From Trypanosoma brucei (lineage: Eukaryota): 64,000 bases of DNA. Made by a program: the position numbers and the translations under genes. The DNA lies in assembly GCA_000002445.1 (NCBI GenBank), contig CP000070.1, positions 864,001-928,000 of the forward strand. The letters run 5' to 3'. A model generated the notes under the pieces. The model had not been told where the DNA came from, searched no databases, and was given only the letters and a program-made list of their open reading frames with translations. Of this stretch, positions 1-56,576 are shown piece after piece. Each line of letters begins with the position of its first letter. The stretch's first letter is position 1.

Positions 1-1862
1 GCAGCTAGTTCATTTGTTTTCTCCTCTTGTAATCGGAGAAGATCATCCCTCTCAGACGAAACATCATGCAGTTTTGCGCCAAGTTCACAGAGTTCTTGTT
101 CTAGAGTATTCAGTTGTTGACGGCCTTCGTCGATTTGCTCCTTCAATAGATCTAGGCCATCCTTAGGTTCATTTAATTTCAACAGCAGCCGCTGCGTTTC
201 CCTGAATGGGTAATGCTGAAGCCGTTGAGCAATTTCCGAAGGATGAATGCTTGAAGGATGGGTGACATCAAATTCAACCACACGACCACTCGGAGTGAAC
301 GTTACATTACTCACACAATCCCTGTAGACACGACATGCATTAGCAGCATCAACAACAACAGCACAACGTAACTCTTCCGGTTTATTCTTCAGCAACTCAT
401 CTAACCTCTCACCTTGAAGTTGAACACACTGAGAACTTACCATGCAATCTCCCTCCATCGAAGCCATCCACCGAGAATCATGTTTCCGCAGCTCATCATT
501 TTCAGCACGAATCGCCTTCAGACTCTCTTGTAGCAAAGAAATTTTGGACTCAACGTTAGCAATCAGTTCATTAAGAGACTCAATTTCCTTTGCGTTATCA
601 GATTCGGCAAGACGAAGTTGCTCATTTTCCTCCTTAAGTTGTTGCAAATGTCGCTCCACCTCGCACACATGTTTCTTGAGCAAATCAAGCTCACGGGCTT
701 TTTCTTCTTCAGCACGGTGGAGCTCCTCGCTTTCTTTACTCAACTTTTTGATGTGTTGATCCTTTGCCGAACAGAGTTCATTTTGCGCATCAAGCTCAAT
801 CACCTTCTCTCTGACACACTCCCTCAATGCATCCACTTCCTCTTGCATCTTCTTCACCTTTTCCTCCATTTCCTCCAGATGACGACTCCGCAAGTCAAGT
901 TCACGTGCCTTTTCGGCCTCCGAATCCCGAAGCCCACCGTTTTCAGTGCGAAGTTCAGCAAGTTGCTCTTCCATCTCATTAAGTTTCTCATTCTGCACAT
1001 CAAGTTCACGTGCTTTCGCCTCATCAGAGCCGCGAAGTTGCTCATTTTGAACTAAAAATTCTTGAAGCTTACCGTCCAAGTCACCTAGTAAACCTTCCTG
1101 AACAACAAGATCATTCGACTTACACTCCAAAGTTCTCTTGAGATCACAATTTTCTTCCACTAAAGCATCTAATTGGTTCTCTACAGCAGTTAGCCGCGCC
1201 TGTTGTGCAGCTAGTTCATTTGTTTTCTCCTCTTGTAATCGGAGAAGATCATCCCTCTCAGACGAAACATCATGCAGTTTTGCGCCAAGTTCACAGAGTT
1301 CTTGTTCTAGAGTATTCAGTTGTTGACGGCCTTCGTCGATTTGCTCCTTCAATAGATCTAGGCCATCCTTAGGTTCATTTAATTTCAACAGCAGCCGCTG
1401 CGTTTCCCTGAATGGGTAATGCTGAAGCCGTTGAGCAATTTCCGAAGGATGAATGCTTGAAGGATGGGTGACATCAAATTCAACCACACGACCACTCGGA
1501 GTGAACGTTACATTACTCACACAATCCCTGTAGACACGACATGCATTAGCAGCATCAACAACAACAGCACAACGTAACTCTTCCGGTTTATTCTTCAGCA
1601 ACTCATCTAACCTCTCACCTTGAAGTTGAACACACTGAGAACTTACCATGCAATCTCCCTCCATCGAAGCCATCCACCGAGAATCATGTTTCCGCAGCTC
1701 ATCATTTTCAGCACGAATCGCCTTCAGACTCTCTTGTAGCAAAGAAATTTTGGACTCAACGTTAACAATCAGTTCATTAAGAGACTCAATTTCCTTTGCG
1801 TTATCAAAATCAGTAAGACGAAGTTGCTCATTTTCCTCCTTAAGTTGTTGCAAATGCCGTTC
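1..1862 (-). repeat. Higher-order direct repeat with a period of about 1208 bp. Copy 1..655 is about 98% identical to copy 1209..1862. The spacer at 656..1208 consists of degenerate 105-bp-family units.
   Basis: 'gcagctagttcatttgtttt' occurs at 1 and 1209. The plus-strand ORFs 442..759 and 1648..1872 start with the same 39 residues. The repeat may continue beyond the left edge. Confidence 0.85.
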
Positions 1863-4800
1863 CATCTCATGAAGTTTCTCATTCTGTACATCAAGTTCAC
1901 GTGCCTTGTCACCATCAGTATTGCGAAGCTCCTCATTCTCAGCGCGTAGTTCAGCAAGTTGCTCCTCCATCTCATGAAGTTTCTCATTCTGCACATCAAG
2001 TTCACGTGCCTTGTCACCATCAGTATTGCGAAGCTCCTCATTTTCCTCCTTAAGTTGTTGCAAATGCCGTTCCATCTCATGAAGTTTCTCATTCTGTACA
2101 TCAAGTTCACGTGCCTTGTCACCATCAGTATTGCGAAGCTCCTCATTCTCAGCGCGTAGTTCAGCAAGTTGCTCCTCCATCTCATGAAGTTTCTCATTCT
2201 GCACATCAAGTTCACGTGCCTTGTCACCATCAGTATTGCGAAGCTCCTCATTCTCAGCGCGTAGTTCAGCAAGTTGCTCTTCCATCTCATGAAGTTTCTC
2301 ATTCTGCACATCAAGTTCACGTGCCTTGTCCCCTTCAGTATTGCGAAGCTCCTCATTCTCAGCGCGTAGTTCAGCAAGTTGCTCCTCCATCTCATGAAGT
2401 TTCTCATTCTGCACATCAAGTTCACGTGCCTTGTCACCATCAGTATTGCGAAGCTCCTCATTCTCAGCGCGTAGTTCAGCAAGTTGCTCTTCCATCTCAT
2501 GAAGTTTCTCATTCTGCACATCAAGTTCACGTGCCTTGTCCCCTTCAGTATTGCGAAGCTCCTCATTCTCAGCGCGTAGTTCAGCAAGTTGCTCCTCCAT
2601 CTCATGAAGTTTCTCATTCTGCACATCAAGTTCACGTGCCTTGTCACCATCAGTATTGCGAAGCTCCTCATTCTCAGCGCGTAGTTCAGCAAGTTGCTCC
2701 TCCATCTCATGAAGTTTCTCATTCTGTACATCAAGTTCACGTGCCTTGTCACCATCAGTATTGCGAAGCTCCTCATTCTCAGCGCGTAGTTCAGCAAGTT
2801 GCTCTTCCATCTCATGAAGTTTCTCATTCTGCACATCAAGTTCACGTGCCTTGTCACCATCAGTATTGCGAAGCTCCTCATTCTCAGCGCGTAGTTCAGC
2901 AAGTTGCTCTTCCATCTCATGAAGTTTCTCATTCTGCACATCAAGTTCACGTGCCTTGTCACCATCAGTATTGCGAAGCTCCTCATTCTCAGCGCGTAGT
3001 TCAGCAAGTTGCTCTTCCATCTCATGAAGTTTCTCATTCTGTACATCAAGTTCACGTGCCTTGTCACCATCAGTATTGCGAAGCTCCTCATTTTCAGCGC
3101 GTAGTTCAGCAAGTTGCTCCTCCATCTCATGAAGTTTCTCATTCTGCACATCAAGTTCACGTGCCTTGTCACCTTCAGTATTGCGAAGCTCCTCATTTTC
3201 AGCGCGTAGTTCAGCAAGTTGCTCTTCCATCTCATGAAGTTTCTCATTCTGTACATCAAGTTCACGTGCCTTGTCACCATCAGTATTGCGAAGCTCCTCA
3301 TTTTCAGCGCGTAGTTCGGCAAGTTGCTCCTCCATCTCATGAAGTTTCTCATTCTGTACATCAAGTTCACGTGCCTTGTCACCATCAGTATTGCGAAGCT
3401 CCTCATTTTCAGCGCGTAGTTCGGCAAGTTGCTCCTCCATCTCATGAAGTTTCTCATTCTGTACATCAAGTTCACGTGCCTTGTCACCATCAGTATTGCG
3501 AAGCTCCTCATTTTCAGCGCGTAGTTCAGCAAGTTGCTCCTCCATCTCATGAAGTTTCTCATTCTGCACATCAAGTTCACGTGCCTTGTCCCCTTCAGTA
3601 TTGCGAAGCTCCTCATTCTCAGCGCGTAGTTCAGCAAGTTGCTCCTCCATCTCATGAAGTTTCTCATTCTGCACATCAAGTTCACGTGCCTTGTCCCCTT
3701 CAGTATTGCGAAGCTCCTCATTCTCAGTGCGTAGTTCAGCAAGTTGCTCCTCCATCTCATGAAGTTTCTCATTCTGCACATCAAGTTCACGTGCCTTGTC
3801 CCCTTCAGTATTGCGAAGCTCCTCATTTTCAGCGCGTAGTTCAGCAAGTTGCTCCTCCATCTCATGAAGTTTCTCATTCTGTACATCAAGTTCACGTGCC
3901 TTGTCACCATCAGTATTGCGAAGCTCCTCATTCTCAGCGCGTAGTTCAGCAAGTTGCTCTTCCATCTCATGAAGTTTCTCATTCTGCACATCAAGTTCAC
4001 GTGCCTTGTCCCCTTCAGTATTGCGAAGCTCCTCATTCTCTGCGCGTAGTTCAGCAAGTTGCTCCTCCATCTCATGAAGTTTCTCATTCTGTACATCAAG
4101 TTCACGTGCCTTGTCACCATCAGTATTGCGAAGCTCCTCATTCTCAGCGCGTAGTTCAGCAAGTTGCTCCTCCATCTCATGAAGTTTCTCATTCTGTACA
4201 TCAAGTTCACGTGCCTTGTCACCATCAGTATTGCGAAGCTCCTCATTCTCAGCGCGTAGTTCAGCAAGTTGCTCTTCCATCTCATGAAGTTTCTCATTCT
4301 GCACATCAAGTTCACGTGCCTTGTCCCCTTCAGTATTGCGAAGCTCCTCATTCTCAGCGCGTAGTTCGGCAAGTTGCTCCTCCATCTCATGAAGTTTCTC
4401 ATTCTGCACATCAAGTTCACGTGCCTTGTCCCCTTCAGTATTGCGAAGCTCCTCATTCTCAGCGCGTAGTTCAGCAAGTTGCTCCTCCATCTCATGAAGT
4501 TTCTCATTCTGCACATCAAGTTCACGTGCCTTGTCCCCTTCAGTATTGCGAAGCTCCTCATTTTCAGCGCGTAGTTCAGCAAGTTGTTCCTCCATCTCAT
4601 GAAGTTTCTCATTCTGCACATCAAGTTCACGTGCCTTGTCCCCTTCAGTATTGCGAAGCTCCTCATTTTCAGCGCGTAGTTCGGCAAGTTGCTCCTCCAT
4701 CTCATGAAGTTTCTCATTCTGCACATCAAGTTCACGTGCCTTGTCCCCTTCAGTATTGCGAAGCTCCTCATTCTCAGCGCGTAGTTCAGCAAGTTGCTCC

Positions 4801-7800
4801 TCCATCTCATGAAGTTTCTCATTCTGCACATCAAGTTCACGTGCCTTGTCACCATCAGTATTGCGAAGCTCCTCATTCTCAGCGCGTAGTTCAGCAAGTT
4901 GCTCCTCCATCTCATGAAGTTTCTCATTCTGCACATCAAGTTCACGTGCCTTGTCACCATCAGTATTGCGAAGCTCCTCATTTTCAGCGCGTAGTTCAGC
5001 AAGTTGCTCTTCCATCTCATGAACGTATCCCTGCAGCTGGACGTCACCTGATGCTGCTTCCCTAATGCGATGAAGCTCCTCATTTTCAGCGCGTAGTTCA
5101 GCAAGTTGCTCTTCCATCTCATGAACGTATCCCTGCAGCTCGACGTCACCTGATGCTGCTTCCCTAATGCGATGAAGCTCCTCATTTTCAGCGCGTAGTT
5201 CAGCAAGTTGCTCTTCCATCTCATGAACGTATCCCTGCAGCTCGACGTCACCTGATGCTGCTTCCCTAATGCGATGAAGCTCCTCATTTTCAGCGCGTAG
5301 TTCAGCAAGTTGCTCTTCCATCTCATGAACGTATCCCTGCAGCTCGACGTCACCTGAAGCTGCTTCCCTAATGCAATGAAGCTCTTCTTTTTCTATTAGT
5401 TGTCCTATTATCTGTTGATGTGGTCGCATGGGGCTGTGTTGTCCTTGTTTGTCTTCTTTTATTCGTACTGCTTTTCTTTCTTCGGGGGACTCTTCGCTTA
5501 ATGGTTCTTCGGTTTTTTGTTGCCTCTGACGATGTGCTCTTATGTTACATATATTATCTTTGTCGTGATCACGTAACGATTCGTCTTGTTCATGTAGCTT
5601 GCTGTGCTCTGTTGGGGTTTCTTTTCTGTACGTTTCCCTTGTCTGACATTCTTCTGAACTTTCGACGGATGTGTTGGTGCGGGTTGTTTCTTCTTCGCTA
5701 GTTTCTTTCTCTAAAAGATATCCGTCGTCTTTTGCGTCCTCGGTTTTTGTTTGAATAACTTCTTCTTTGTTTTCTTTTGTCCGGCGTAGTAAAGTGTTTT
5801 CGTCATTCAGTATGCGTAGCCTCTCCTCCAATGCTTTTATGTGCCCTCGTAGTTCCTCAATCTGAGCAATTTCCTCCCTGGTGGACATGAATAAATCACC
5901 ATCGTCCAGGGTTTCGTGCAAACTGTGAGAATAAGAAGGACTGTCTTGGTGATCTCCTTCCCTCCGGCCTCTATTGCTGTGTTGGTGAGGGTCACTTTCT
6001 CCTTGTTTCCCGATCGTTTGCATTAGTTGCAACACTGAAAGAAACTCTGCCCTCCTGACCCGTTGTGCGAGATCGTATTGTGACACGGAAGGAGGGTGAG
6101 AGACGGTGAACACGACAGATGTGTAGTACTCATTGAAACAAATATCGTCAATATCACTGATATCTACCTGGCAAGCACGAGCGGCATCCACAAGAACGGC
6201 TTTGTTGATATCTTCTCTATTGTTGATTATGTGCGTCCTCCATTCACGGAGATCGATATTCTTTTTGAGTGTGGATGTGACCCTCTCCCCATGTTGGTCT
6301 TTATGTCCCTCGATGATGTAGCCCTCTCTGCTCCCACCGCGAGTTGATGCATGCAGCGGAGACTCGTGCTCACTTACCCCCTGGTCCGTAGCGTCGTATC
6401 CTCTAATCTGATCACCGCTGCTTTCCCTTTGTAGTTCCTCTATTTCTTTGCGGTAGTGCTCCAGCTGACGAAGATCTTCGTCATGGCGCTGCTTAAGTTC
6501 GCTGATCTTGATTATCCCTTCTTGGCGCGTCTTCTCTGCCAGTTCACGCTGCTCGTTCAGGAGCTGCTGTAGCTCGTTGTTCACCCGCTGCGCTTCTTCA
6601 ATTTGTTGTAAGAGGTCACTGTTCTCTTCATGGGCAATATCAGTGGAATTTTGCCGTGGCTGAGAGTCCACTGCTTCGTCCTTCGGCTGCAAACCACCAC
6701 AGCTGAACCCCCCTTCCAACGCATGATGAAGAGCAACGTGGAGCAGCGGGCGGTGAATGGTAGCGCACCAGTCAATGAACTGCACATCCTTGTCCGTAAT
6801 GCTAACGACATCACCATTATCATCCGAAATACTCAAAACTGTCAGAATACAAGAACGGGAAACGTTGGTTGACGGCCTATCAGCAGAGGCAACGAACGTA
6901 AGGTACTGTTCGCTCTCATCTTCGCAAGCCCCATCGTCAACACTGCTTCCCTCTTCAGCACTGCAGTGCAACTTTGTTTCAATGCGCTTGATTTGCGTGT
7001 TCAGTTCCTTTATGTGAGCTATGTGGCTGGTAATATTCGCGTGCAGCTCGTCTGTGGACCGCTGAGAGTTTACGATCTCACATATGACGTGAAACATGCC
7101 CATCTGGGCAATGATCCAATCAAAAAGAAGAGGTAGCAGGGTGTCAGTACCGGACCTCGACCCGCCGGTCGTTTTCCCACTTAGTTGATTGCAGTAGAGG
7201 TGGACATCGGACATGTAGGCATCGTTGATGTCGTTGTAAAGTTCTACGCTCATATCAGTCATTGGGTCAAATTCCAGCAACCGCTGTATGTAGGTCGGAT
7301 CCCTCACAGCGGCCCGCAGGTCCTCCCACGACCATGAGGAATCAACAACCAAGTCCTCATTTAGAAGTGCGACAGTTGCCTCTAGCGCAAGCCGAAGTTG
7401 CACCGATGGAACCCGTGTGTTGAACACTTCGTGAAGTCGCACCTCCTCTACAGCCGCAATAGCACGACGAACGGCATCGGAAGACTCCTTTGCACGCCCC
7501 ATGGCCGCCTCATTGTTACGCCGAACAGCCGCCATCTCCTCGCGCAACGCCATAACACTCATGTGGCGGTGCCTCATCTCCTCCATTTTCCTCTCTTTGT
7601 CGATCCTTAGTGTGTTGAGAACAGCGGGATCGTGGCTGTTCTGTGGGAGCAACACACGCACCGTAGCGGAACGTGAATCCAGCTGCAACACGCGCCCCAG
7701 AAACCATCGCCGCTTGGAAGCTTTGCCTAATAATTCATAGGCCACAAGAGACCCCACGCACAAGGGGTCTTTCACACTATTAAGTAACGACTTCACACGG

Positions 7801-27471: not shown

Positions 27472-28212
27472 TTAGCACCCGCAACCTGCCTTTTGCTTCG
27501 GTGGCGGTGGGCGCTGAGCCTCCGCCCTCGCTCTCGCTTCCGCTTCTGCCCTTGCTCTTGCTTCTGCCTCTGCCCTTGCTCTCGCTTCTGCCTCTGCCCT
27601 TGCTCTTGCTTCTGCCTCTGCCCTTGCTTCCGCTTCTGCCTCTGCCCTTGCTCTTGCTTCCGCTTCTGCCTCAGCTTCCGCGTCGGCTTCGGGGTTGGCC
27701 TCATCCTCCACGATGGGCTCGCCCTCAACCTCAATTTTCCGTCGCATGTATTCCCTCCTTATTTCTCTCATAGCCTCTCTCCCTTCTTCACCATACAGCG
27801 CATCCATAAACTCATCCACTGACACGTATCCCCGGTTATCCGAGTCCAGTGCGTTAAAAAGCGCATCGACCTCTTCAACACTGAGTGTGTCTTGAGTGGA
27901 ACCAACCTTTCCAGCGGTTTCCTGAAGTGTGGCGCGGGTAAAAATGCCATCAGGGGCGAGGGCAACAAGGTGCTTCGCCATTGCGTATGCGTCCCGAATG
28001 TGCTCACTCTCTTCACACATCAGCAAAAATTCATCTTCTGTTAGCAAGCCTGGAAACTGGCCTCGACGCGCGACATCCTCCACAGCCGACAACTTAAATA
28101 AGAATCCAGATTCCAAACCGGCAACAAGGGCTATAGATGGAGGGACAACTTTGTTTCCATCTCTCCTCTTGAAGTGCCGCTTTTCGAATGCAACATCTGG
28201 AGGGCAGAGCAT
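27472..28212 (-). CDS. EF-hand protein with a C-terminal (ARARAEAE)n octapeptide repeat tail. Tandem copy 1. Possibly the trypanosome I/6-autoantigen-type cytoskeletal Ca-binding protein.
   Basis: EF-hand loop ALDSDNRGYVSVDEFMDAL. The tail ends with about 10 x 24-bp repeats (27520-27690). Start chosen at MLCPPDVAFEK. The ORF-track extension to 28329 reads through conserved upstream sequence. The I/6 suggestion comes from recalled locus order only. Confidence 0.65.
   Translation of the reverse strand: MLCPPDVAFEKRHFKRRDGNKVVPPSIALVAGLESGFLFKLSAVEDVARRGQFPGLLTEDEFLLMCEESEHIRDAYAMAKHLVALAPDGIFTRATLQETAGKVGSTQDTLSVEEVDALFNALDSDNRGYVSVDEFMDALYGEEGREAMREIRREYMRRKIEVEGEPIVEDEANPEADAEAEAEAEARARAEAEAEARAEAEARARAEAEARARAEAEARARAEAEARARAEAQRPPPPKQKAGCGC
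27520..27690 (-). repeat. 24-bp coding microsatellite-like repeat (gcctctgcccttgctcttgcttct family) encoding (ARARAEAE)n.
   Basis: Seen directly in the sequence. It is absent from the downstream paralogue. Confidence 0.85.
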
Positions 28213-28521
28213 TATCTTGAATAAGGTAACAACAACTTTGAATATGTAAGGTTCTTCACCTACATGGACGGGGGAATTTAAAAGGAATGAAACGTAACTG
28301 CAGCATGGCGGGTAACGACAAGTACGCAACCCACGTAGAATTTTGAAGGAAATACTAACATGTGAGTTTGGGAAAGAATCAGCATATCGAAGACATTTGT
28401 ATTAAGCACATATGATAAAGCGAGCGACTGCAAATTTATTCCCGTCCCCTCACTTTCTAGGATAAAAGATTTAACAAATTCATCTGAATTTCTGTTGCCT
28501 GTCCACCCATTCCAGATCCGT

Positions 28522-29109
28522 TCACAACTCTGCCTCTTCATCTGCTTCCGCCTCCTCGTCCGCTTCTGCATCCACTTCCGCATCAGCTTCAGGGTTGGCC
28601 TCATCCTCCACGACGGGCTCGGTCTCAGCCTCAATTTTCCGTCGCATGTATTCCCTCCTTATTTCTCTCATAGCCTCTCTCCCTTCTTCACCATACAGCG
28701 CATCCATAAACTCATCCACTGACACGTATCCCCGGTTACCCAAGTCCAGTGCGTTAAAAAGCGCATCGACCTCTTCAACACTGAGTGTGTCTTGAGTGGA
28801 ACCAACCTTTCCAGCGGTTTCCTGAAGTGTGGCGCGGGTAAAAATGCCATCAGGGGCGAGGGCAACAAGGTGCTTCGCCATTGCGTATGCGTCCCGAATG
28901 TGCTCACTCTCTTCACACATCAGCAAAAATTCATCTTTTGTTAGCAAGCCTGGAAACTGGCCTCGACGCGCGACATCCTCCACAGCCGACAACTTAAATA
29001 AGAATCCAGATTCCAAACCGGTGCCAAGGGCTATAGATGGAGGAGTAACCTTGTTTCCGCTCCTCTTGAAGCACCGCTTTTCGAATGCAACATCTGGAGG
29101 GCAGAGCAT
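28522..29109 (-). CDS. EF-hand protein, tandem copy 2. It is a paralogue of 27472..28212 with a different acidic tail (EADAEVDAEADEEAEADEEAEL).
   Basis: The N-terminal ~180 aa are nearly identical to copy 1 (same EF-hand loop, and the same upstream block YPPCCSYVSFLLNSPVHVGEEPYIFKVVVTLFKI). The duplication offset is 1050 bp. Confidence 0.65.
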   Translation of the reverse strand: MLCPPDVAFEKRCFKRSGNKVTPPSIALGTGLESGFLFKLSAVEDVARRGQFPGLLTKDEFLLMCEESEHIRDAYAMAKHLVALAPDGIFTRATLQETAGKVGSTQDTLSVEEVDALFNALDLGNRGYVSVDEFMDALYGEEGREAMREIRREYMRRKIEAETEPVVEDEANPEADAEVDAEADEEAEADEEAEL

Positions 29110-29319
29110 TATCTTGAATAAGGTAACAACAACTTTGAATATGTAAGGTTCTTCACCTACATGGACGGGGGAATTTAAAAGGAATGAAACGTAACTGCAG
29201 CATGGCGGGTAGCAAGTATGTGGCTTGTAAAAACCTAAACTGGGTATAGGGGAAAGCAATACATATATACTGAGTTTCCCGTATTCCGCAAACTCTCACA
29301 ATGTGGGCCTTGCTTGATA

Positions 29320-30684
29320 TCATAACCTCTCCATCGATCTCGATGTGGAAATAAAAGATCCCAGGTCCCCAACCCGTCGAAATACAGACCCCATTTCATT
29401 GTTCCGTGGATCCATCTTACTGGGATATAGCTTATTTTTGAACTCCACCCAATCAAACTCGTTGCTGAACCCCTTTCCACTTCCACTAAGCAACCCCCGC
29501 GACTGTTGTGAAGGAAGGTGAGACCGACTCTCTCTTAAAGAACGCGGCACCTGTTTATAGACGGATGGCTGCTCTTCACGTAATGCCTGCAATTTGTTCG
29601 CTAGTTTTTCAAGATGTTCGTTTCCAACATACAAAGTGAGACCATCCTTCACGATCGCCTCAGCTTTCTCAAAGTCATCTTGATATGCTGCCGCCGCCGC
29701 CCATCCCACGTAACCCCTTGCGCAAGCGGTGCTCGTTGGCTTCACCTGTGGCTGCAGCAACGCCGCCTCTCTCCCGTTGTACTCTGCACCTTTGAAGTCA
29801 GCATTTAACAGTGAAGCAAATGAGATATTAGCGTGAGTAGTGGCCTGGGAATCAGGATCATGACAAAACATTAAGGCGTCAGCTAGCACGGATGCTGCAT
29901 CGCTATAGTTACCAGCATTAATGCACCCTTCTGAAATGGTCGTGAGCAGAAGAATTAGGCTTCTTTCATCATCTGCCGTCGTCTCAGCGGGGGACACTGT
30001 GGCCCCGATAAATGTACCTAAACTTTCGCTGATCTCCACTTGATGTTGTTCAGGCAAGCATTTTTCGCATTCCCCTAATACAGAAAGTGACCCTTCGAAA
30101 CGACTCCTCGCCAGCCGCCGGTGAGGCGTGCTCCCACCCTTTTCAACATAAGACTTATAATCAAACAGATCGTCTAGAAACCGGTCTTTTAAAACGGGGT
30201 TGGATAGTACGGATCTGAGACCAACAGGGGATATCTTAACCCCAAGTTGCTCCTCGAATTTTTTCATCGGAACGAGGAGAGGAGCAATACTGGGTTGCAA
30301 CGTCTTGTATCCACGTGCTGATTCAACCTCTGGGTACACTTCCACAGCTTTAAAGAAATCGTTAGAAGCGTTGACAAGCTCGCTAAGGGGATCTTTTATG
30401 TAGCAACGAAGCCACTCCTCCACCTCAACAGGTACGTGTTCCTGTTGATACGTTGAAAGAAATTCGTGTAGCCGGAATGGCACCTCCATACCAGTAGGAA
30501 AACACCCCAGTGTCCACCAGTACTTCATAGTGTACGGTCCTGGGCCGTGTGGACCCGGGAAGCGGTAAAGGTACAACGTTGGGTTCAGTGTCATATGTTT
30601 CTGATGTTTCGATCCTGGGCTCCATCCGCCCCTTTGGTAATTCTTACATGAAACACTCCGGAAAAGCATCTGAGGAGTCCTCAA
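29320..30684 (-). CDS. Hypothetical protein (454 aa). The C-terminal half is helical and possibly TPR-like.
   Basis: A long same-strand ORF with coding-like composition. No recognisable catalytic motif. Confidence 0.55.
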   Translation of the reverse strand: MRTPQMLFRSVSCKNYQRGGWSPGSKHQKHMTLNPTLYLYRFPGPHGPGPYTMKYWWTLGCFPTGMEVPFRLHEFLSTYQQEHVPVEVEEWLRCYIKDPLSELVNASNDFFKAVEVYPEVESARGYKTLQPSIAPLLVPMKKFEEQLGVKISPVGLRSVLSNPVLKDRFLDDLFDYKSYVEKGGSTPHRRLARSRFEGSLSVLGECEKCLPEQHQVEISESLGTFIGATVSPAETTADDERSLILLLTTISEGCINAGNYSDAASVLADALMFCHDPDSQATTHANISFASLLNADFKGAEYNGREAALLQPQVKPTSTACARGYVGWAAAAAYQDDFEKAEAIVKDGLTLYVGNEHLEKLANKLQALREEQPSVYKQVPRSLRESRSHLPSQQSRGLLSGSGKGFSNEFDWVEFKNKLYPSKMDPRNNEMGSVFRRVGDLGSFISTSRSMERL

Positions 30685-52850: not shown

Positions 52851-55800
52851 TTAGAAACCTCGCCCAACGGATGATTCGCGGTTTGTTGAAGCGCGTCGGG
52901 AAGAATCACGGTTGCCCGAAGGGTGCCCGCTACTCAATCTCGAATCGCGGGATCGCATCTCTAGTTGCTTGATAGTTTCGGTGCGATTGCGGAATGTGGT
53001 GCGCTTTTCGAGTGGGATGTGGTCCTCATTGCTGGCGTTCTTGGTTGGATGCCACGGCTGCCAGTTGCCGGAGGTGAGACTCGCCCCGGGGCTGATTGAA
53101 AAGTTGTGCTCATCCAATCTCTCACTTGGCCGTCGGACAGAACTTCGCGGTGACCTGTTGCGGGTGTTGGCGGCGGCACCGACATCTGAACTTTCAGCCT
53201 CTGAGGTGGAGGGTTTCCCTTCGGCAGCCCGGGTTCGGCCCGCACTGTCGCCGCGGCCACGTACATTTTCTGCGGAGTCCCGCTGTCCGCTGAGTCTACC
53301 CTTCTTCGTTGCTGCCTCGGGTGAAACCGGTTTTTTCCCCGATCCGGAACGCTTCTCGGAGCCGCCTTGAGATGCTGCCTTCTTCTTTGCGCTACGCTCA
53401 TCTCCTTTGCCAATTGGCGGCTTCCGATCTGGGCTCGGTGTCGGTGGTACGTCGAGTTTCACTGTCCGCTGCTCCTTCCCACCTTCCTTCTCAAAGCGCC
53501 CCTCAGAGCCCTTCGAAGACAATCGTTCACCCCCTTCCTCATTACGCTTCGAGAGCGGCTGCTCCTCTGTGGGTTCCTCCGCCTTGGGCTCATCGAGCTC
53601 CTCCAGATCCTCCTCCGCCAATTCCTTTGGAGAACGGGTATATTCATCCTCCTTCACAGGATACCGTTCATCCGCACCAGCAAGTCCCTGGGGTTCATCA
53701 AGCTCCTCCAAACTCTCCTCTTCTGCAGTGCGCTTTGAAAGAGGCCCATCATCTCCATACCCCTCCTCATCGGCCGACTTACCCGCTGCCTCCGTGGGAG
53801 TGCGCTTTTCTTTGCTTTTTTTGGGGGATTTGCGACTTTTCTCCGATCCTTCTTTAGACTTGCCTGTTGTTTCTCTGGGTGATCGCTTCTCCTTTCCCTC
53901 TTTGGGGGACTTGCGGCTCTTTTCCGACTCTTCCTTTGACTTGCCTGTTGTTTCTCTGGGTGATCGCTTCTCCTTTCCCTCTTTCGGGGACTTGCGGCTC
54001 TTTTCCGATTCCTTTGGGGAACGCTTCTTCTTGCGCTCTCCTCCACTGGGATGTTGTTCGTCCTCAGCAGCGTGGCCCTGAGGATCATCGAGTTCCTCGA
54101 GATCTTCATCTTCCTCATTGCGCTTTGAGAGTGGCTTATCCTGTGCGGAGCGGTCGTCCTCTGCGCTCTTAGCCGCAGATTCATTGAACCTATCCGATCC
54201 CCTTTCTTCTTCACTGCGCTTTGAGAGTGGTCTCTCCTGTGCAGAACGGTCGTCCTCCGCGCTCTTCACCTGCTGCTCATCGAGTTCCTCGAGATCTTCA
54301 TTTTCCTCATTGCGCTTTGAAAGTGGCTTATCCTGTGCGGACCGGTCGTCCTCTGCGCTCTTAGCCGCAGATTCATTGAACCTATCCGATCCCCTTTCTT
54401 CTTCACTGCGCTTTGAGAGTGGTCTCTCCTTGGGGGAGCGTCCATCCTCTGCGCTCTTCACCTGTTGCTCATCGAGCTCGTCAAGATATCTGCCCCCCTC
54501 TTCTTCATTACGCTTCGGAGAAGTGCTCTTTGGTGACCGCGATGTCTGCCTGGCAGTGGAACCTTTGCTGTTACTTTTCCTTGAGCTCCTGGGGGAGCGC
54601 TTCTGCGACCGTTGCTTCGAAGGTGATTTTTCCCTTGCGGACCGCCCCTTCTCCGCACTCTTCTCGCGAGAGTCACTTGCATATTCTGAACCATCTTCGT
54701 TCCTCCTTGAAGAGAGCTGGTCACTCCTCATTTCACTCTGTCGTTTGCTCCCTCCCCGGCCAGATCGTCCGCTCGCGCCTCTCCTGGGACTGGAGCCTTC
54801 CTCCTCCTTTTCATTACTTAGCTCCCTCTTGGACTCACCGTCATCCTCCTCAGTGGATCGGATGAGCTTGTAGGAGACAAGGATTTCTCCCCTCTTCACG
54901 GTTTCATTTTGCGGGTCGTGCATTTTTACGGTCAAGGCATCACTGTCGTTGAGCAACTCAAAGCGCCCACTGCTCACAATTCTCTTGTCGTCAAGAACTT
55001 GAACGTCAATGAAGGCTTGCCCACCGTCCATCTCAATGAAGCGCACCTCTTGATTCCAAGTGATGACATGCGCTAAGCCGTCAGCCTCTACCACAGCTGG
55101 CGCAGAGTATGTTGAACCTTCCATATCACAAGCAAAGACGGAAACCTGTCCCTGCGCCAATGGTTCCCCTTCCCGGTCTGTCAGGTTGAGTCCACGAACA
55201 ACCGTCAAGAACAATGATTCACGTGGTCCTGATCCATCTCTCTGTCCAGTACGGTCATTTGACATTTGTGTACCCTGTCTATCTTCCTCATTACTCTTCT
55301 GAATGGTTGCATATGATATGATTCCCCACTCGACCGCGATCTCACCCCAGAGTACATCCTCTTTGACCTTGGATTCGACGAGCAAAACTGCAGAACCCTT
55401 GTGGTAAAGCTTCTCGAAGTCAAGTGGAACAGCACCGACCACAATGAGTTCTTCGTCTTCTTCGTTTTCGACCTCATCCTTGGTAACACAAATGAGAACG
55501 TGACCAAGTTTCTTGGGTGTAATGAGTTGCAGCATCTGCGAACGGTCCTGGGGCAAGTAGGTACATCCTCCCTTTCCGTAATATGGCGAGGACGACATGG
55601 CTCCCTCACTGTTGAATGTGTAGAGACCTGATTCTGAGCAGTTGTCGTCCGTGTCGCGAAGCAGACACAGCACACCACCGTTGTATGGGAGGGCGCCATT
55701 ATCTGTATATTGGAACAAACGGTGGACAACAAAGTTACAGTTAATGGGGCCGCCCTCAAGGTTTTGCTTCAAGGCCGCACCATCTGCATCGTCCTCCCCG

Positions 55801-56576
55801 TCACGCTTTACATACCATGACACAACGATGGAACCCATCGGCGTTTCCTTCATGCGACCGTAGCTGCGGTGCATCTCCCCTGCCGCACAAACCGGCAAGG
55901 TTTCCTCATCACCGCGAGCGCGATTACGAAGAGCATGTGGGGGGACAACAATACCTCCAAACATGTGGTCGTTTTCAGCTGGAAGTGTGTCATCAACGAC
56001 AAGCACCTCCAAACCCTCCTCCTCATTTGGATACGGGAACTCAAACAGCTCCTCCCACGTGCAGATGGCGCTTCTTCCACGGGGGACCTTTGCTGTTTGA
56101 CCCTCAAACGCACCACAGCGCACAAGGACAGAAACTGGATCACGTGGATCGACATTAATGCTCTTACCATGGTGTACCGTGACGATGAGACGCGTTGTAT
56201 TCGTCTGTCGTCGCGATTTCCGCAGTTCATCTAATGTCGTTGGCGGTAGGGGAATTGCAGGCTGGTTTAGTTCTTCGTCTTCCATGACCCGCTGCAGGTT
56301 GCTGGTGCGCGGGCGGGGGATTGAGGGATGTGGGTTCTTCGCGCGTTCCTCAATGATGTTGATTTGCATTAGCTTTTCACGCTCCAGTTCCTTCTCCTGC
56401 TTAGCAGTGCGCAACAAGTGGTTGCGGCCCCGTGAAGGATTGATCTCCGCGCAGCAACTGCAGGCGTAGTGAACTGGCATTTGATCGTACGTGGAAAACG
56501 GAGGAAACCCCTCCCGGCGAATGAGGGACGTGGCCGTGTCATCCTCATGGGGAAGTGGTTCACCGAATATAGACAT
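52851..56576 (-). CDS. Protein of 1241 aa with two C2-like domains and a long charged, internally repetitive C-terminal region.
   Basis: Two C2-like beta-sandwich signatures: LIVTVHHGKSINVDPRDPVSVLVRCGAFEGQTAKV...WEELFEF and LFLTVVRGLNLTDREGEPLAQGQVSVFACD...WNQEVRFIE. These are followed by about 600 aa of K/E/S/R-rich sequence containing 3 x 27-aa and about 2.2 x 64-aa repeats. Confidence 0.6.
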   Translation of the reverse strand: MSIFGEPLPHEDDTATSLIRREGFPPFSTYDQMPVHYACSCCAEINPSRGRNHLLRTAKQEKELEREKLMQINIIEERAKNPHPSIPRPRTSNLQRVMEDEELNQPAIPLPPTTLDELRKSRRQTNTTRLIVTVHHGKSINVDPRDPVSVLVRCGAFEGQTAKVPRGRSAICTWEELFEFPYPNEEEGLEVLVVDDTLPAENDHMFGGIVVPPHALRNRARGDEETLPVCAAGEMHRSYGRMKETPMGSIVVSWYVKRDGEDDADGAALKQNLEGGPINCNFVVHRLFQYTDNGALPYNGGVLCLLRDTDDNCSESGLYTFNSEGAMSSSPYYGKGGCTYLPQDRSQMLQLITPKKLGHVLICVTKDEVENEEDEELIVVGAVPLDFEKLYHKGSAVLLVESKVKEDVLWGEIAVEWGIISYATIQKSNEEDRQGTQMSNDRTGQRDGSGPRESLFLTVVRGLNLTDREGEPLAQGQVSVFACDMEGSTYSAPAVVEADGLAHVITWNQEVRFIEMDGGQAFIDVQVLDDKRIVSSGRFELLNDSDALTVKMHDPQNETVKRGEILVSYKLIRSTEEDDGESKRELSNEKEEEGSSPRRGASGRSGRGGSKRQSEMRSDQLSSRRNEDGSEYASDSREKSAEKGRSAREKSPSKQRSQKRSPRSSRKSNSKGSTARQTSRSPKSTSPKRNEEEGGRYLDELDEQQVKSAEDGRSPKERPLSKRSEEERGSDRFNESAAKSAEDDRSAQDKPLSKRNEENEDLEELDEQQVKSAEDDRSAQERPLSKRSEEERGSDRFNESAAKSAEDDRSAQDKPLSKRNEEDEDLEELDDPQGHAAEDEQHPSGGERKKKRSPKESEKSRKSPKEGKEKRSPRETTGKSKEESEKSRKSPKEGKEKRSPRETTGKSKEGSEKSRKSPKKSKEKRTPTEAAGKSADEEGYGDDGPLSKRTAEEESLEELDEPQGLAGADERYPVKEDEYTRSPKELAEEDLEELDEPKAEEPTEEQPLSKRNEEGGERLSSKGSEGRFEKEGGKEQRTVKLDVPPTPSPDRKPPIGKGDERSAKKKAASQGGSEKRSGSGKKPVSPEAATKKGRLSGQRDSAENVRGRGDSAGRTRAAEGKPSTSEAESSDVGAAANTRNRSPRSSVRRPSERLDEHNFSISPGASLTSGNWQPWHPTKNASNEDHIPLEKRTTFRNRTETIKQLEMRSRDSRLSSGHPSGNRDSSRRASTNRESSVGRGF
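53800..54035 (-). repeat. 81-bp coding repeat x3 (SPKEGKEKRSPRETTGKSKEESEKSRK).
   Basis: 'ttctctggg' recurs at 53871 and 53952. Confidence 0.8.
54065..54500 (-). repeat. 192-bp coding repeat, about 2.2 copies (a 64-aa acidic unit DRFNESAAKSAEDDRSAQDKPLSKRNEE...).
   Basis: 'tcctcattgcgctttga' recurs at 54112 and 54304. Confidence 0.8.

What the first reader, a model, noticed from the sequence alone, without database searches (positions are those of the whole stretch)
27472..29259. Tandem EF-hand paralogues with swapped C-terminal repeat tails
Two genes 1050 bp apart share an almost identical ~180-aa body. This includes the EF-hand loop DSDNRGYVSVDEF (DLGNRGYVSVDEF in copy 2) and even about 120 bp of upstream non-coding sequence. 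Their tails differ. Copy 1 ends in about 10 ARARAEAE octapeptides encoded by a 24-bp microsatellite. Copy 2 ends in a short Asp/Glu-rich tail (EADAEVDAEADEEAEADEEAEL). The different tails on a conserved Ca-binding body suggest subfunctionalisation, with different partners or localisation. Alternatively the microsatellite may be expanding or contracting only in copy 1. The locus order and the EF-hand plus repetitive character are reminiscent of the T. brucei I/6 repetitive cytoskeletal autoantigen; this is from memory and is tentative.
Basis: partly seen in the sequence, partly recalled or inferred. Interest (0 to 1): 0.5.

Follow-up and report, generated by a model that had tools for sequence, protein, structure and literature searches.

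The report
Trypanosome I/6 antigen gene and paralogue
The two genes are the already described Trypanosoma brucei cytoskeletal "I/6 autoantigen" and a neighbouring sister copy that has lost the family's conserved lipid-anchor tail, so this is a known locus with a modest evolutionary twist.

Summary
Two minus-strand genes, 28212..27472 (246 aa) and 29109..28522 (195 aa), share a 656-bp block at 96% identity. The block covers 102 bp upstream of the ATG plus about 184 codons.

Copy 1 is the known T. brucei I/6 autoantigen (Tb927.7.3440), 99% identical to AGI6_TRYBB over the body.

The tails are not "swapped". All 17 orthologues from other kinetoplastids end in a charged spacer, a basic patch and CC/CGC. 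Its spacer is about 6.4 units of a 24-bp minisatellite, not 10. Copy 2 lost spacer and anchor and ends in an acidic "AEL" tail, as does the only T. congolense protein found.

Four other kinetoplastid loci have a single gene in the same syntenic slot. Inside the block, dS is 0 across codons 32-161 and about 0.3 in two flanking patches, a gene-conversion mosaic. The EF-hand loop is degenerate family-wide, so "Ca-binding" is doubtful.

In passing: Swiss-Prot AGI6_TRYBB reads the repeat in the +1 frame, probably through two sequencing frameshifts.

Known locus, low to moderate interest.

The parts
27472..28212 (-). Copy 1 CDS = I/6 autoantigen (246 aa + stop): calmodulin-like body aa 1-163, short linker, helical repeat spacer aa 174-232, PPPP-basic-CGC end
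   Evidence: Translation. 99% identical to AGI6_TRYBB over aa 1-166. AF2 model pLDDT 86.
28522..29109 (-). Copy 2 CDS (195 aa + stop): same body, short acidic tail ending AEL, no spacer, no basic-Cys end
   Evidence: Translation. Pfam EF-hand_8 47.2 bits. AF2 tail pLDDT 50-54. Tail net charge -15.
27659..28314 (-). Homology block, copy 1 side (splice region, 5' UTR and codons 1 to about 184)
   Evidence: blastn 96.0% over 656 columns. Difference map.
28559..29211 (-). Homology block, copy 2 side
27518..27670 (-). 24-bp minisatellite, 6.4 copies, encoding (EAEARARA)n; predicted single long alpha-helix
   Evidence: TRF. The repeat finder D1. 24 of 27 charged residues have an opposite charge at i+/-4. 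AF2 helix 174-232 at pLDDT 93-98.
27475..27516 (-). Codons for QRPPPPKQKAGCGC: basic patch + CxC, the conserved family C-terminus and predicted S-acylation site
   Evidence: All 17 orthologues outside African trypanosomes end in a Lys-rich stretch (least pronounced in the three KxSxCC sequences P0079, P0093 and P0094) followed by CC or CGC. I/6 is a high-confidence palmitoylated, DRM-associated protein (PMC5617996).
27811..27846 (-). Copy 1 EF-hand loop 4, DSDNRGYVSVDE (Arg at ligand position 5)
28711..28746 (-). Copy 2 EF-hand loop 4, DLGNRGYVSVDE (additionally Gly at ligand position 3)
28213..28292 (-). Copy 1 polypyrimidine tract (about 28292-28266), trans-splice acceptor AG (28261-28260) and 47-nt 5' UTR (28259-28213), all inside the duplicated block
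   Evidence: The P0002 N-terminus ARDYIGEEPYIF equals adaptor + last 9 nt of the spliced leader + window sequence from 28259. The leader sequence is from memory, so the site is inferred.
29110..29189 (-). Copy 2 equivalent splice region and 5' UTR (AG 29158-29157, UTR 29156-29110)
   Evidence: Identical sequence to the copy 1 side.
28315..28521 (-). Copy 2-specific 3' UTR / intergenic spacer with no detectable homology to copy 1's 3' flank
   Evidence: Local alignment versus shuffles, P = 0.3.
28122..28176 (-). Divergent patch 1 (codons 13-31, dS about 0.26): copy 2 residues S17, T23, G30 shared with T. congolense
27659..27728 (-). Divergent patch 2 (codons 162-184, dS about 0.32) at the body/tail junction, where homology decays

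Best explanation
The locus is the I/6 autoantigen locus of a Trypanosoma brucei-group genome. It lies inside a minus-strand polycistronic unit, in the conserved kinetoplastid slot MAM33 / ~450-aa protein / I/6 / cyclophilin. Other kinetoplastids have one gene here; this genome has two in tandem.

The downstream gene (copy 1) is I/6 itself and keeps the ancestral three-part design.
(a) An eight-helix calmodulin/centrin-like head whose EF-hand loops are degenerate, so it is probably a protein-binding module and not a Ca2+ sensor.
(b) A charged helical spacer. In T. brucei this is built from about 6 units of a 24-bp minisatellite encoding EAEARARA. The i/i+4 Glu-Arg pattern and the absence of a hydrophobic stripe fit a stable single alpha-helix about 9 nm long.
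(c) A PPPP-basic-CGC end that is the likely S-acylation and membrane-binding site.

Inferred mechanism: a lipid-anchored tether or spacer between the inner leaflet of the plasma membrane and the subpellicular microtubule cytoskeleton.

The upstream gene (copy 2) has the same head and the same trans-splicing/5' UTR signals. It lacks the spacer and the anchor and has its own 3' UTR, so it should be regulated and localised differently, as an anchor-less version of the head.

Evolution, inferred: the duplication probably predates the T. brucei / T. congolense split. Gene conversion has since repeatedly homogenised the 5' block and the body, leaving two old patches and the tails unconverted.

Shown here: the identity with I/6, the architecture, the synteny, the conserved C-terminus and the mosaic divergence. 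Inferred: which cysteines are acylated, the single-helix behaviour, the tether function, the age of the duplication and whether copy 2 is functional.
For: Identity. AGI6_TRYBB is 99% identical over the body. It matches copy 1 at every copy-distinguishing residue through position 166, the part both sequences read in the same frame.

Published properties of I/6 = Tb927.7.3440: cytoskeletal, 'non-functional EF-hand', high-confidence palmitoylated, DRM-associated (PMC5617996).

Synteny and copy number. MAM33 and cyclophilin flank the pair in the window. The same order with one I/6 gene is seen in T. grayi, Leishmania and two Logan kinetoplastid assemblies. All long ORFs in the window lie on the minus strand.

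Conserved C-terminus. 17 of 17 orthologues outside African trypanosomes end in a Lys-rich stretch followed by CC or CGC, after a charged spacer of 43-129 aa.

Spacer. 24-bp x 6.4 copies. 24 of 27 charged residues have an opposite charge at i+/-4. AF2 predicts helix 174-232 at pLDDT 93-98, against pLDDT 50-54 for copy 2's tail.

Head. AF2 gives eight helices. The best PDB matches are centrin and calmodulin (Foldseek E about 1e-4). The sequence profile hits KChIP and calmodulin. The loop is degenerate in all 19 family members.

Gene conversion. The 26 differences are clustered, with identical runs of 138, 83, 195 and 110 bp; P < 0.003 by permutation. dS = 0 over 89 synonymous sites in codons 32-161, against 0.26-0.32 in codons 13-31 and 162-184. 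There is no residual homology in the 3' flanks, which a recent whole-gene duplication would have left.

Old duplication. Copy 2 shares S17, T23, G30, K59 and the terminal AEL with T. congolense TCIL3000_7_2700. Copy 1 shares H13, D18, V30 and A31 with the T. grayi outgroup.

Expression of copy 1 and its splice site: cDNA-like P0002.
Against: - Patch dS of about 0.3, from only about 29 synonymous sites, looks low for a duplication older than the brucei/congolense split. It requires partial later conversion.
- No CGC-type gene from T. congolense was found, so that species may have a single AEL-type gene. I could not inspect its DNA.
- The orthology argument rests on four residues plus a three-residue terminus.
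- The acylated cysteine is not mapped. African-trypanosome proteins also have Cys3 (MLCPP), and copy 2 adds Cys13.
- The DRM experiment used I/6-eGFP, apparently a C-terminal fusion, and it still partitioned into DRMs. A free CGC terminus is therefore not needed, or Cys3 is the site.
- AF2 confidence on low-complexity repeats is not proof of a stable single helix.
- Copy 2 has lost the near-invariant D18 and an EF-loop Asp, and overall dN/dS is 0.67. This is compatible with relaxed constraint.
Confidence: 0.7

Rival explanations
1. Recent, T. brucei-specific partial duplication. A segment of about 650 bp (splice region + body + start of tail) was copied into the upstream intergenic region. Read-through into local sequence then created the short acidic AEL tail. 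The high identity reflects youth, not gene conversion.
For: - 96% identity with sharp block edges, and flanks with no homology at all.
- Four other kinetoplastids are single-copy.
- Patch dS is only about 0.3.
- Only one T. congolense family member was found.
Against: - The differences are not spread as expected for a young copy. dS is 0 over 390 bp but about 0.3 in two 55-70 bp patches, with codons changed at 2-3 positions.
- This scenario needs convergent S17, T23, G30, K59 and a convergent AEL stop in T. congolense.
- It also needs T. congolense to have lost the CGC end independently.
Confidence: 0.15
2. Copy 2 is a decaying, functionless duplicate whose reading frame is kept open only by gene conversion from I/6.
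For: - It has lost the family-defining spacer and basic-Cys end.
- It has lost the near-invariant D18 and EF-loop Asp125.
- 11 non-synonymous against 5 synonymous codon changes within codons 1-179, the part clearly homologous between the copies (four further non-synonymous changes lie in codons 180-186). Overall dN/dS is 0.67.
- Its tail is predicted to be disordered.
Against: - The ORF is intact, with its own intact trans-splice signal and a distinct 3' UTR.
- The same anchor-less, AEL-ending architecture exists as an intact gene in T. congolense, implying long-term retention.
- With so few sites, dN/dS below 1 does not show neutrality.
Confidence: 0.12
3. Assembly artefact: one gene assembled twice.
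For: Near-identical 656-bp block in tandem.
Against: - There are 26 clustered differences including a clean codon deletion, plus different tails, stops and 3' UTRs.
- Copy 1 is independently confirmed by AGI6_TRYBB and by cDNA-like P0002.
- Copy 2's private residues match a T. congolense gene.
Confidence: 0.02
4. The Swiss-Prot reading is right. On this view the I/6 repeat is the basic KQEQGQRQ-type sequence, and the window carries compensating indel errors or strain differences.
For: AGI6_TRYBB aa 167-228 equals the +1 frame of the window with 60 of 61 aligned residues identical plus a 2-aa gap. P0002 has the same 6-nt repeat variant as AGI6_TRYBB.
Against: - Both readings start and end in the window's frame. 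The Swiss-Prot sequence needs a 1-nt loss at 27714 and a 2-nt loss at about 27520-27524, in GC-rich runs typical of gel compressions.
- The window's frame is the one conserved in copy 2 and in T. congolense (VEDEANPEADAE versus VEEGDASPEDQENPDAEAQAEA).
- P0002 does not return to frame at the second site.
- A later paper speaks of 'negatively charged repeats' in I/6 (PMC8625193).
Confidence: 0.05

Closest known systems
Trypanosoma brucei I/6 autoantigen (Swiss-Prot AGI6_TRYBB; Tb927.7.3440; Detmer et al. 1997, cited in PMC5617996)
   Same: Copy 1 is this protein. The body is 99% identical (two substitutions, E61G and T99A) and the last 15 residues are identical. Copy 2 is its tandem paralogue, about 93% identical over the body.
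   Different: The database protein reads the repeat block in another frame and is 3 aa shorter. Copy 2 lacks the repeat and the CGC end. None of the papers I could search describes copy 2.
Kinetoplastid 'I/6 autoantigen(-like)' orthologues (T. grayi XP_009314305, Angomonas deanei, Leishmania, Phytomonas)
   Same: Same synteny, same head of about 145 aa, a charged spacer, and a basic + CC/CGC end.
   Different: They are single-copy. Their spacers are non-repetitive or built from different ER/K-type repeats. Their N-terminus is MP..., whereas African trypanosomes have MLCPP.
T. congolense TCIL3000_7_2700 (uncharacterised)
   Same: Like copy 2, it has an anchor-less acidic tail ending AEL, and it shares S17, T23, G30 and K59.
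   Different: Its tail is longer (73 aa) and contains AEAQAKAEAE, which resembles one I/6 repeat unit. It keeps the SD residues of the EF loop.
Calmodulin / centrin family (four EF-hands)
   Same: Eight-helix, two-lobe fold by AF2 and Foldseek. Pfam EF-hand_8 scores above its cut-off.
   Different: Identity is about 20%. Three loops are non-canonical and the fourth lacks ligand 5 (copy 2 also lacks ligand 3). The EF-hand is reported as non-functional.
ER/K single alpha-helix (SAH) spacers, e.g. myosin VI/VIIa/X (from general knowledge)
   Same: Alternating blocks of acidic and basic residues at i/i+4, no hydrophobic seam, and a predicted isolated helix of about 59 residues.
   Different: The composition is Ala-rich E/R instead of E/K/R. 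The helix is untested experimentally.
C-terminal polybasic + S-acylated cysteine anchors (e.g. plant type-II ROP GTPases; from general knowledge)
   Same: A basic patch immediately before terminal cysteines in a protein known to be palmitoylated and raft-associated.
   Different: There is no GTPase domain, and the modified residue is unmapped. CxC/CC also resembles Rab geranylgeranylation motifs, but there is no Rab fold here.

Membership tests
I/6 autoantigen family (kinetoplastid) | Sequence homology of the ~165-aa head to AGI6_TRYBB | tested here: met
   Copy 1 is 99% identical over the head. Copy 2 is 93% identical. The family profile retrieves both.
I/6 autoantigen family (kinetoplastid) | Syntenic position between the conserved ~450-aa gene (with MAM33 upstream) and the cyclophilin gene | tested here: met
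   Window. T. grayi, Leishmania and two other kinetoplastids.
I/6 autoantigen family (kinetoplastid) | Charged spacer followed by a basic patch and terminal CC/CGC | tested here: met
   Met for copy 1 (KQKAGCGC). NOT met for copy 2, which ends EADEEAEL. Copy 2 is therefore a divergent, tail-less member.
I/6 autoantigen family (kinetoplastid) | Association with the subpellicular cytoskeleton; palmitoylation | not testable with these tools
   Literature only, and only for I/6 itself (PMC5617996). Nothing is known for copy 2.
Functional EF-hand Ca2+-binding proteins | EF-hand helix-loop-helix pair detectable by profile and by fold | tested here: met
   Pfam EF-hand_8 at 52.2 and 47.2 bits against a cut-off of 28. 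Calmodulin/centrin-like AF2 model.
Functional EF-hand Ca2+-binding proteins | 12-residue loop with oxygen ligands at positions 1, 3, 5, 9 and 12, and Gly at 6 | tested here: not met
   Copy 1 has Arg at position 5. Copy 2 has Gly at 3 and Arg at 5. Position 5 is a canonical oxygen ligand in only one of the 19 family members (Ser in P0074), and every member fails at least one of the scored positions. The other three loops are non-canonical. The literature says 'non-functional EF-hand'.
Single alpha-helix (ER/K-type) domains | Dense i/i+4 opposite-charge pairs and no hydrophobic heptad seam | tested here: met
   24 of 27 charged residues are paired at i+/-4. Ala occupies every second position, so there is no amphipathic face (and direct reading).
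Single alpha-helix (ER/K-type) domains | Monomeric, stable helix in solution | not testable with these tools
   There is only the AF2 prediction (helix 174-232, pLDDT 93-98).
Rab-type CxC/CC geranylgeranylated proteins | Rab GTPase fold recognised by the Rab escort protein | tested here: not met
   No GTPase domain by Pfam or by fold. The CGC end is better read as an S-acylation site.

The most novel reading that the evidence does not exclude
On this reading the I/6 family is a pan-kinetoplastid 'molecular ruler'. It would combine a calmodulin-like, Ca2+-independent head that docks on the subpellicular microtubule corset, a single-alpha-helix spacer of lineage-specific length (a minisatellite in T. 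brucei, hence evolvable), and a C-terminal dual-cysteine S-acyl/polybasic anchor in the plasma membrane. African trypanosomes would then have added an anchor-less, spacer-less paralogue. Gene conversion keeps this paralogue identical in its docking surface, so that it competes with I/6 for the same cytoskeletal sites and tunes membrane-cytoskeleton coupling, with its own 3' UTR providing stage control.
Probability: 0.25. Interest if true: 0.45.

Novelty: already known. Interest (0 to 1): 0.27.

Why it matters
I/6 is an abundant, highly immunogenic, palmitoylated component of the trypanosome membrane skeleton, and its function is still unknown.

- Its conserved feature is a head-spacer-lipid-anchor design, not the repeat. 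This gives a concrete, testable model for how the plasma membrane is coupled to the microtubule corset.
- The anchor-less sister gene is a natural 'head-only' control for that model.
- The reviewed Swiss-Prot entry appears to give the wrong amino-acid sequence for the immunodominant repeat (basic Q/K/R instead of EAEARARA). That matters to anyone designing peptides, antibodies or diagnostics from it.
- The locus is also a compact example of concerted evolution, with sharply bounded conversion tracts inside a polycistronic unit.

Tried and rejected
- **Full-length protein search.** The search with the full-length protein was swamped by low-complexity EA/RA hits from bacteria. Repeating it with the body alone found only AGI6_TRYBB and the T. 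congolense protein. A profile search again hit the candidate cap and returned only 10 proteins.
- **Exact-sequence look-ups.** Look-ups of copy 1, copy 2 and the T. congolense protein found no contigs. I therefore could not compare other T. brucei strains or subspecies for repeat number, nor inspect the T. congolense locus.
- **Residual homology outside the block.** I compared the copy 2 3' UTR with the copy 1 3' flank, and the two upstream intergenic segments with each other. Neither exceeded shuffled controls (P about 0.3). Only the GAR-rich start of the tails gave a weak match (P = 0.012).
- **Further paralogues in the window.** tblastn found none.
- **Literature.**
  - Emmer et al. 2011, the palmitoylome paper, is not held.
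  - The neighbouring gene IDs appear in no paper.
  - Detmer et al. 1997 is not available, so what the authors said about copy number and about the repeat could not be read.
  - The T. cruzi azidomyristate hit for I/6, which has no Gly2, survived hydroxylamine treatment. It is therefore ambiguous evidence on lipidation and I did not rely on it.
- **Prenylation of the CGC end.** I considered and rejected Rab-like prenylation, because there is no Rab fold.
- **Coiled-coil spacer.** I considered and rejected a coiled-coil reading, because the repeat has no hydrophobic seam.
Full report
**1. What is in the sequence**

The region carries two same-strand (minus) open reading frames. The coordinates in the finding are the maximal TTG-to-stop ORFs. 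Reading from the first ATG gives two CDSs:
- Copy 1: 28212..27472, 246 aa.
- Copy 2: 29109..28522, 195 aa.

A self-comparison gives one duplicated block, 27659-28314 versus 28559-29211. It spans 656 alignment columns with 26 differences, 96% identity and an offset of 897-900 bp. The quoted 1050 bp is the stop-to-stop distance.

The block begins 102 bp upstream of each ATG and ends about 184 codons in, within the Glu/Ala-rich start of the tail. Outside the block nothing aligns better than shuffled sequence. tblastn finds no third copy in the window.

The 24-bp array at 27518-27670 has 6.4 copies at 87% match. In protein this is four exact ARARAEAE units plus two degenerate ones, not about ten.

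After the array, copy 1 continues QRPPPPKQKAGCGC-stop.

Both quoted EF-hand loops and the acidic tail of copy 2 are as described. Pfam EF-hand_8 is above its cut-off for both proteins.

**2. Identity**

Copy 1 is the Trypanosoma brucei I/6 autoantigen. Swiss-Prot AGI6_TRYBB is 99% identical over the first 166 residues and identical over the last 15. Within the part both sequences read in the same frame (through residue 166), it carries the copy 1 state at every residue that distinguishes the two copies.

The literature equates I/6 with Tb927.7.3440. It describes a highly immunogenic cytoskeletal protein with a non-functional EF-hand.

All ORFs of 200 aa or more that do not overlap a longer opposite-strand ORF lie on the minus strand, as expected for a trypanosomatid polycistronic unit.

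**3.

An exhaustive HMMER search with copy 2 and a profile search recovered orthologues from:
- T. grayi (annotated as I/6 autoantigen), Phytomonas, Leishmania and Angomonas (annotated as I/6 autoantigen-like);
- a dozen unnamed kinetoplastid assemblies.

All 17 share the head of about 145 residues, followed by a charged spacer of 43-129 residues, a basic patch and a terminal CC or CGC. Examples are ...KKAMCGC...KKKKASACC and ...KEKAKGCC. The KQKAGCGC end of copy 1 is therefore ancestral and is the most conserved tail feature.

Only two proteins lack it: copy 2, and the single T. congolense protein found (TCIL3000_7_2700). Both have strongly acidic tails (net charge -15 and -17) that end in AEL. 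The tails were not swapped. Copy 2 lost the spacer and the anchor.

**4. Synteny and copy number**

In the window the pair sits between a 454-aa ORF, with a MAM33-domain gene beyond it, and a cyclophilin gene. The same order, with one I/6 gene, is seen in T. grayi, Leishmania and two further kinetoplastid assemblies. The tandem pair is therefore a lineage-specific duplication in the ancestral slot.

**5. How the copies relate**

The 26 differences are strongly clustered. Identical runs measure 138, 83, 195 and 110 bp. Half of all differences fall within 60 bp. Permutation gives P < 0.003.

Nei-Gojobori estimates:

| Codons | dS | Note |
|---|---|---|
| 32-161 | 0 | 89 synonymous sites |
| 13-31 | 0.26 | divergent patch 1 |
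| 162-184 | 0.32 | divergent patch 2 |

Several codons in the patches differ at two or three positions. This mosaic is what gene conversion between old duplicates produces. A young duplicate would instead show evenly spread differences and would still have recognisable 3' flanks.

In the unconverted N-terminal patch, and at one isolated site, copy 2 shares S17, T23, G30 and K59 with the T. congolense protein. Copy 1 shares H13, D18, V30 and A31 with the T. grayi outgroup. Together with the shared AEL terminus, this suggests that copy 2 and TCIL3000_7_2700 are orthologues and that the duplication predates the brucei/congolense split.

Caveats:
- The site count is small.
- A patch dS of 0.3 is lower than expected for that age.
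- No CGC-type T. congolense gene was found, and I could not obtain T. congolense DNA.

I rate the old-duplication-plus-conversion scenario at roughly two in three. A recent partial duplication with convergence is about one in six.

**6. Structure and likely mechanism**

*Copy 1 model.* AlphaFold2 with the 19-sequence family alignment gives mean pLDDT 86:
- an eight-helix body (residues 1-163);
- a short low-confidence linker;
- one uninterrupted helix, 174-232, at pLDDT 93-98;
- an unstructured PPPPKQKAGCGC end.

*The head.* Foldseek places the body nearest centrin and calmodulin (E about 1e-4, about 20% identity). A sequence profile finds KChIP and calmodulin EF-hands.

*The loops.* Only the fourth loop approaches the canonical pattern, and it has Arg at ligand position 5. 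Copy 2 also has Gly at position 3. The loop is degenerate in every family member, in line with the published 'non-functional EF-hand'. The head is therefore better viewed as a calmodulin-like binding module than as a Ca2+ sensor.

*The spacer.* In the EAEARARA repeat, 24 of 27 charged residues have an opposite charge at i+/-4, and Ala occupies every second position. There is no hydrophobic seam. From general knowledge of ER/K motifs, this is the signature of a stable single alpha-helix. At 1.5 Å per residue, 59 residues span about 9 nm. Orthologue spacers are also E/R/K-rich with many i/i+4 pairs but differ in length and sequence. The spacer is a conserved property realised by different low-complexity sequences.

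*The anchor.* The basic patch plus terminal cysteines, in a protein known to be palmitoylated and raft-associated, is most simply an S-acylation and electrostatic membrane anchor.

*Inference.* I/6 tethers or spaces the plasma membrane and the subpellicular cytoskeleton.

*Points against or open.*
- The modified cysteine is unmapped.
- African-trypanosome proteins also have Cys3.
- The DRM experiment used I/6-eGFP, apparently C-terminally tagged. A free C-terminus is therefore not required. This argues against prenylation but leaves the site open.

*Copy 2 model.* It has the same head and a low-confidence tail (pLDDT 50-54). It shares the splice region and 5' UTR with copy 1 but has a private 3' UTR (28315-28521). 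In trypanosomes the 3' UTR is where most mRNA-level regulation resides (general knowledge). Copy 2 is therefore predicted to be an anchor-less, differently regulated version of the head. Whether it is functional, a competitor, or decaying is not settled. It has lost the near-invariant D18, and overall dN/dS is 0.67. Against decay, the same architecture is retained in T. congolense.

**7. Side finding: the reference protein is probably frameshifted**

AGI6_TRYBB residues 167-228 (SWRMRPTPKPTRKLRQKRKREQGQ...) do not align with copy 1 in its own frame. They match its +1 frame with 60 of 61 residues identical plus a 2-aa gap. Deleting one A at 27714 and two bases at about 27524/27520 from the window sequence reproduces the Swiss-Prot frame pattern, including the return to ...AQRPPPPKQKAGCGC.

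The window's frame is the one conserved in copy 2 and in T. congolense. It also agrees with a later description of 'negatively charged repeats' (PMC8625193). The immunodominant repeat is therefore most likely EAEARARA-type, not the basic Q/K/R repeat in the database.

**8. Transcript evidence**

A database protein of metagenomic provenance (P0002) is a frameshift-ridden translation of a copy 1 transcript. Its first residues, ARDYIGEEPYIF, equal a cDNA adaptor, plus the last nine bases of the T. brucei spliced leader (recalled from memory), plus window sequence from 28259 downward.

This places the trans-splice acceptor at AG 28261-28260, behind the polypyrimidine tract at 28292-28266. It gives a 47-nt 5' UTR, all inside the duplicated block. 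The translation extends to about 27258, so the 3' UTR of copy 1 is at least about 215 nt.

**9. Verdict**

The I/6 attribution is right. The locus is already known and annotated, so novelty is low.

What the analysis adds:
- (i) the family-wide head-spacer-anchor architecture, which shows that copy 2 is the derived, tail-less form;
- (ii) a clear gene-conversion mosaic;
- (iii) a probable error in the reviewed reference sequence.

Interest is low to moderate.

Noticed in passing
window 27520-27714 (copy 1 repeat region) versus Swiss-Prot AGI6_TRYBB: The reviewed database sequence of I/6 reads residues 167-228 in the +1 frame relative to the genome. Removing one base at 27714 and two at about 27520-27524 reproduces it. 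Conservation in copy 2 and in T. congolense supports the genome frame, so the published repeat sequence is probably a double-frameshift artefact.
   Followed up: yes
window 28259-28261 and about 27258 (copy 1 mRNA ends): Protein P0002 (metaclust) looks like a single-pass cDNA translation of copy 1. Its N-terminus fits adaptor + spliced-leader 3' end joined at 28259, which defines the trans-splice site. It also carries the same 6-nt repeat variant as AGI6_TRYBB, hinting at a small strain polymorphism in the array.
   Followed up: partly
window 1861-5329, inside a minus-strand ORF open from beyond 6500 down to position 3: There are 33 near-perfect (96%) copies of a 105-bp unit encoding a 35-aa coiled-coil-like repeat (EQLAELRAENEELRNTDGDKARELDVQNEKLHEME). 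They sit in an ORF of more than 2166 aa that runs off the window start. Because of the repeat, a second minus-strand frame and the plus strand are also open (ORFs 1769-5353 and 2111-5065).
   Followed up: partly
window 53820-54487, inside ORF 52851-56576 (-): Two adjacent tandem-repeat arrays (an 81-bp unit x 2.4 copies; 96/192-bp units x 3.6/2.1 copies) lie within a 1241-aa ORF. Antisense ORFs of 224 and 251 aa are open across them.
   Followed up: no
window 29320-30684 (-) and L001 1047-2402, L002 4233-5567: The ~450-aa gene immediately upstream of I/6 is conserved and syntenic across kinetoplastids. It has a conserved N-terminal motif, YQRGGW.PG.KHQKHMT.NPTLYLYRFPGPHGPGPYTMKYWW, and no Pfam domain.
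   Followed up: no
copy 2 codons 13 and 17-18 (window about 29073-29059) and copy 1/copy 2 codon 3: African-trypanosome family members start MLCPP (Cys3), where all other orthologues start MP... . Copy 2 adds a second N-terminal cysteine (H13C) and deletes the near-invariant Asp18. These are possible alternative acylation sites that could compensate for the lost C-terminal cysteines.
   Followed up: no
PMC5617996: The only experimental membrane-association test of I/6 used I/6-eGFP, apparently a C-terminal fusion that would bury the CGC end. It still partitioned with detergent-resistant membranes.
   Followed up: no
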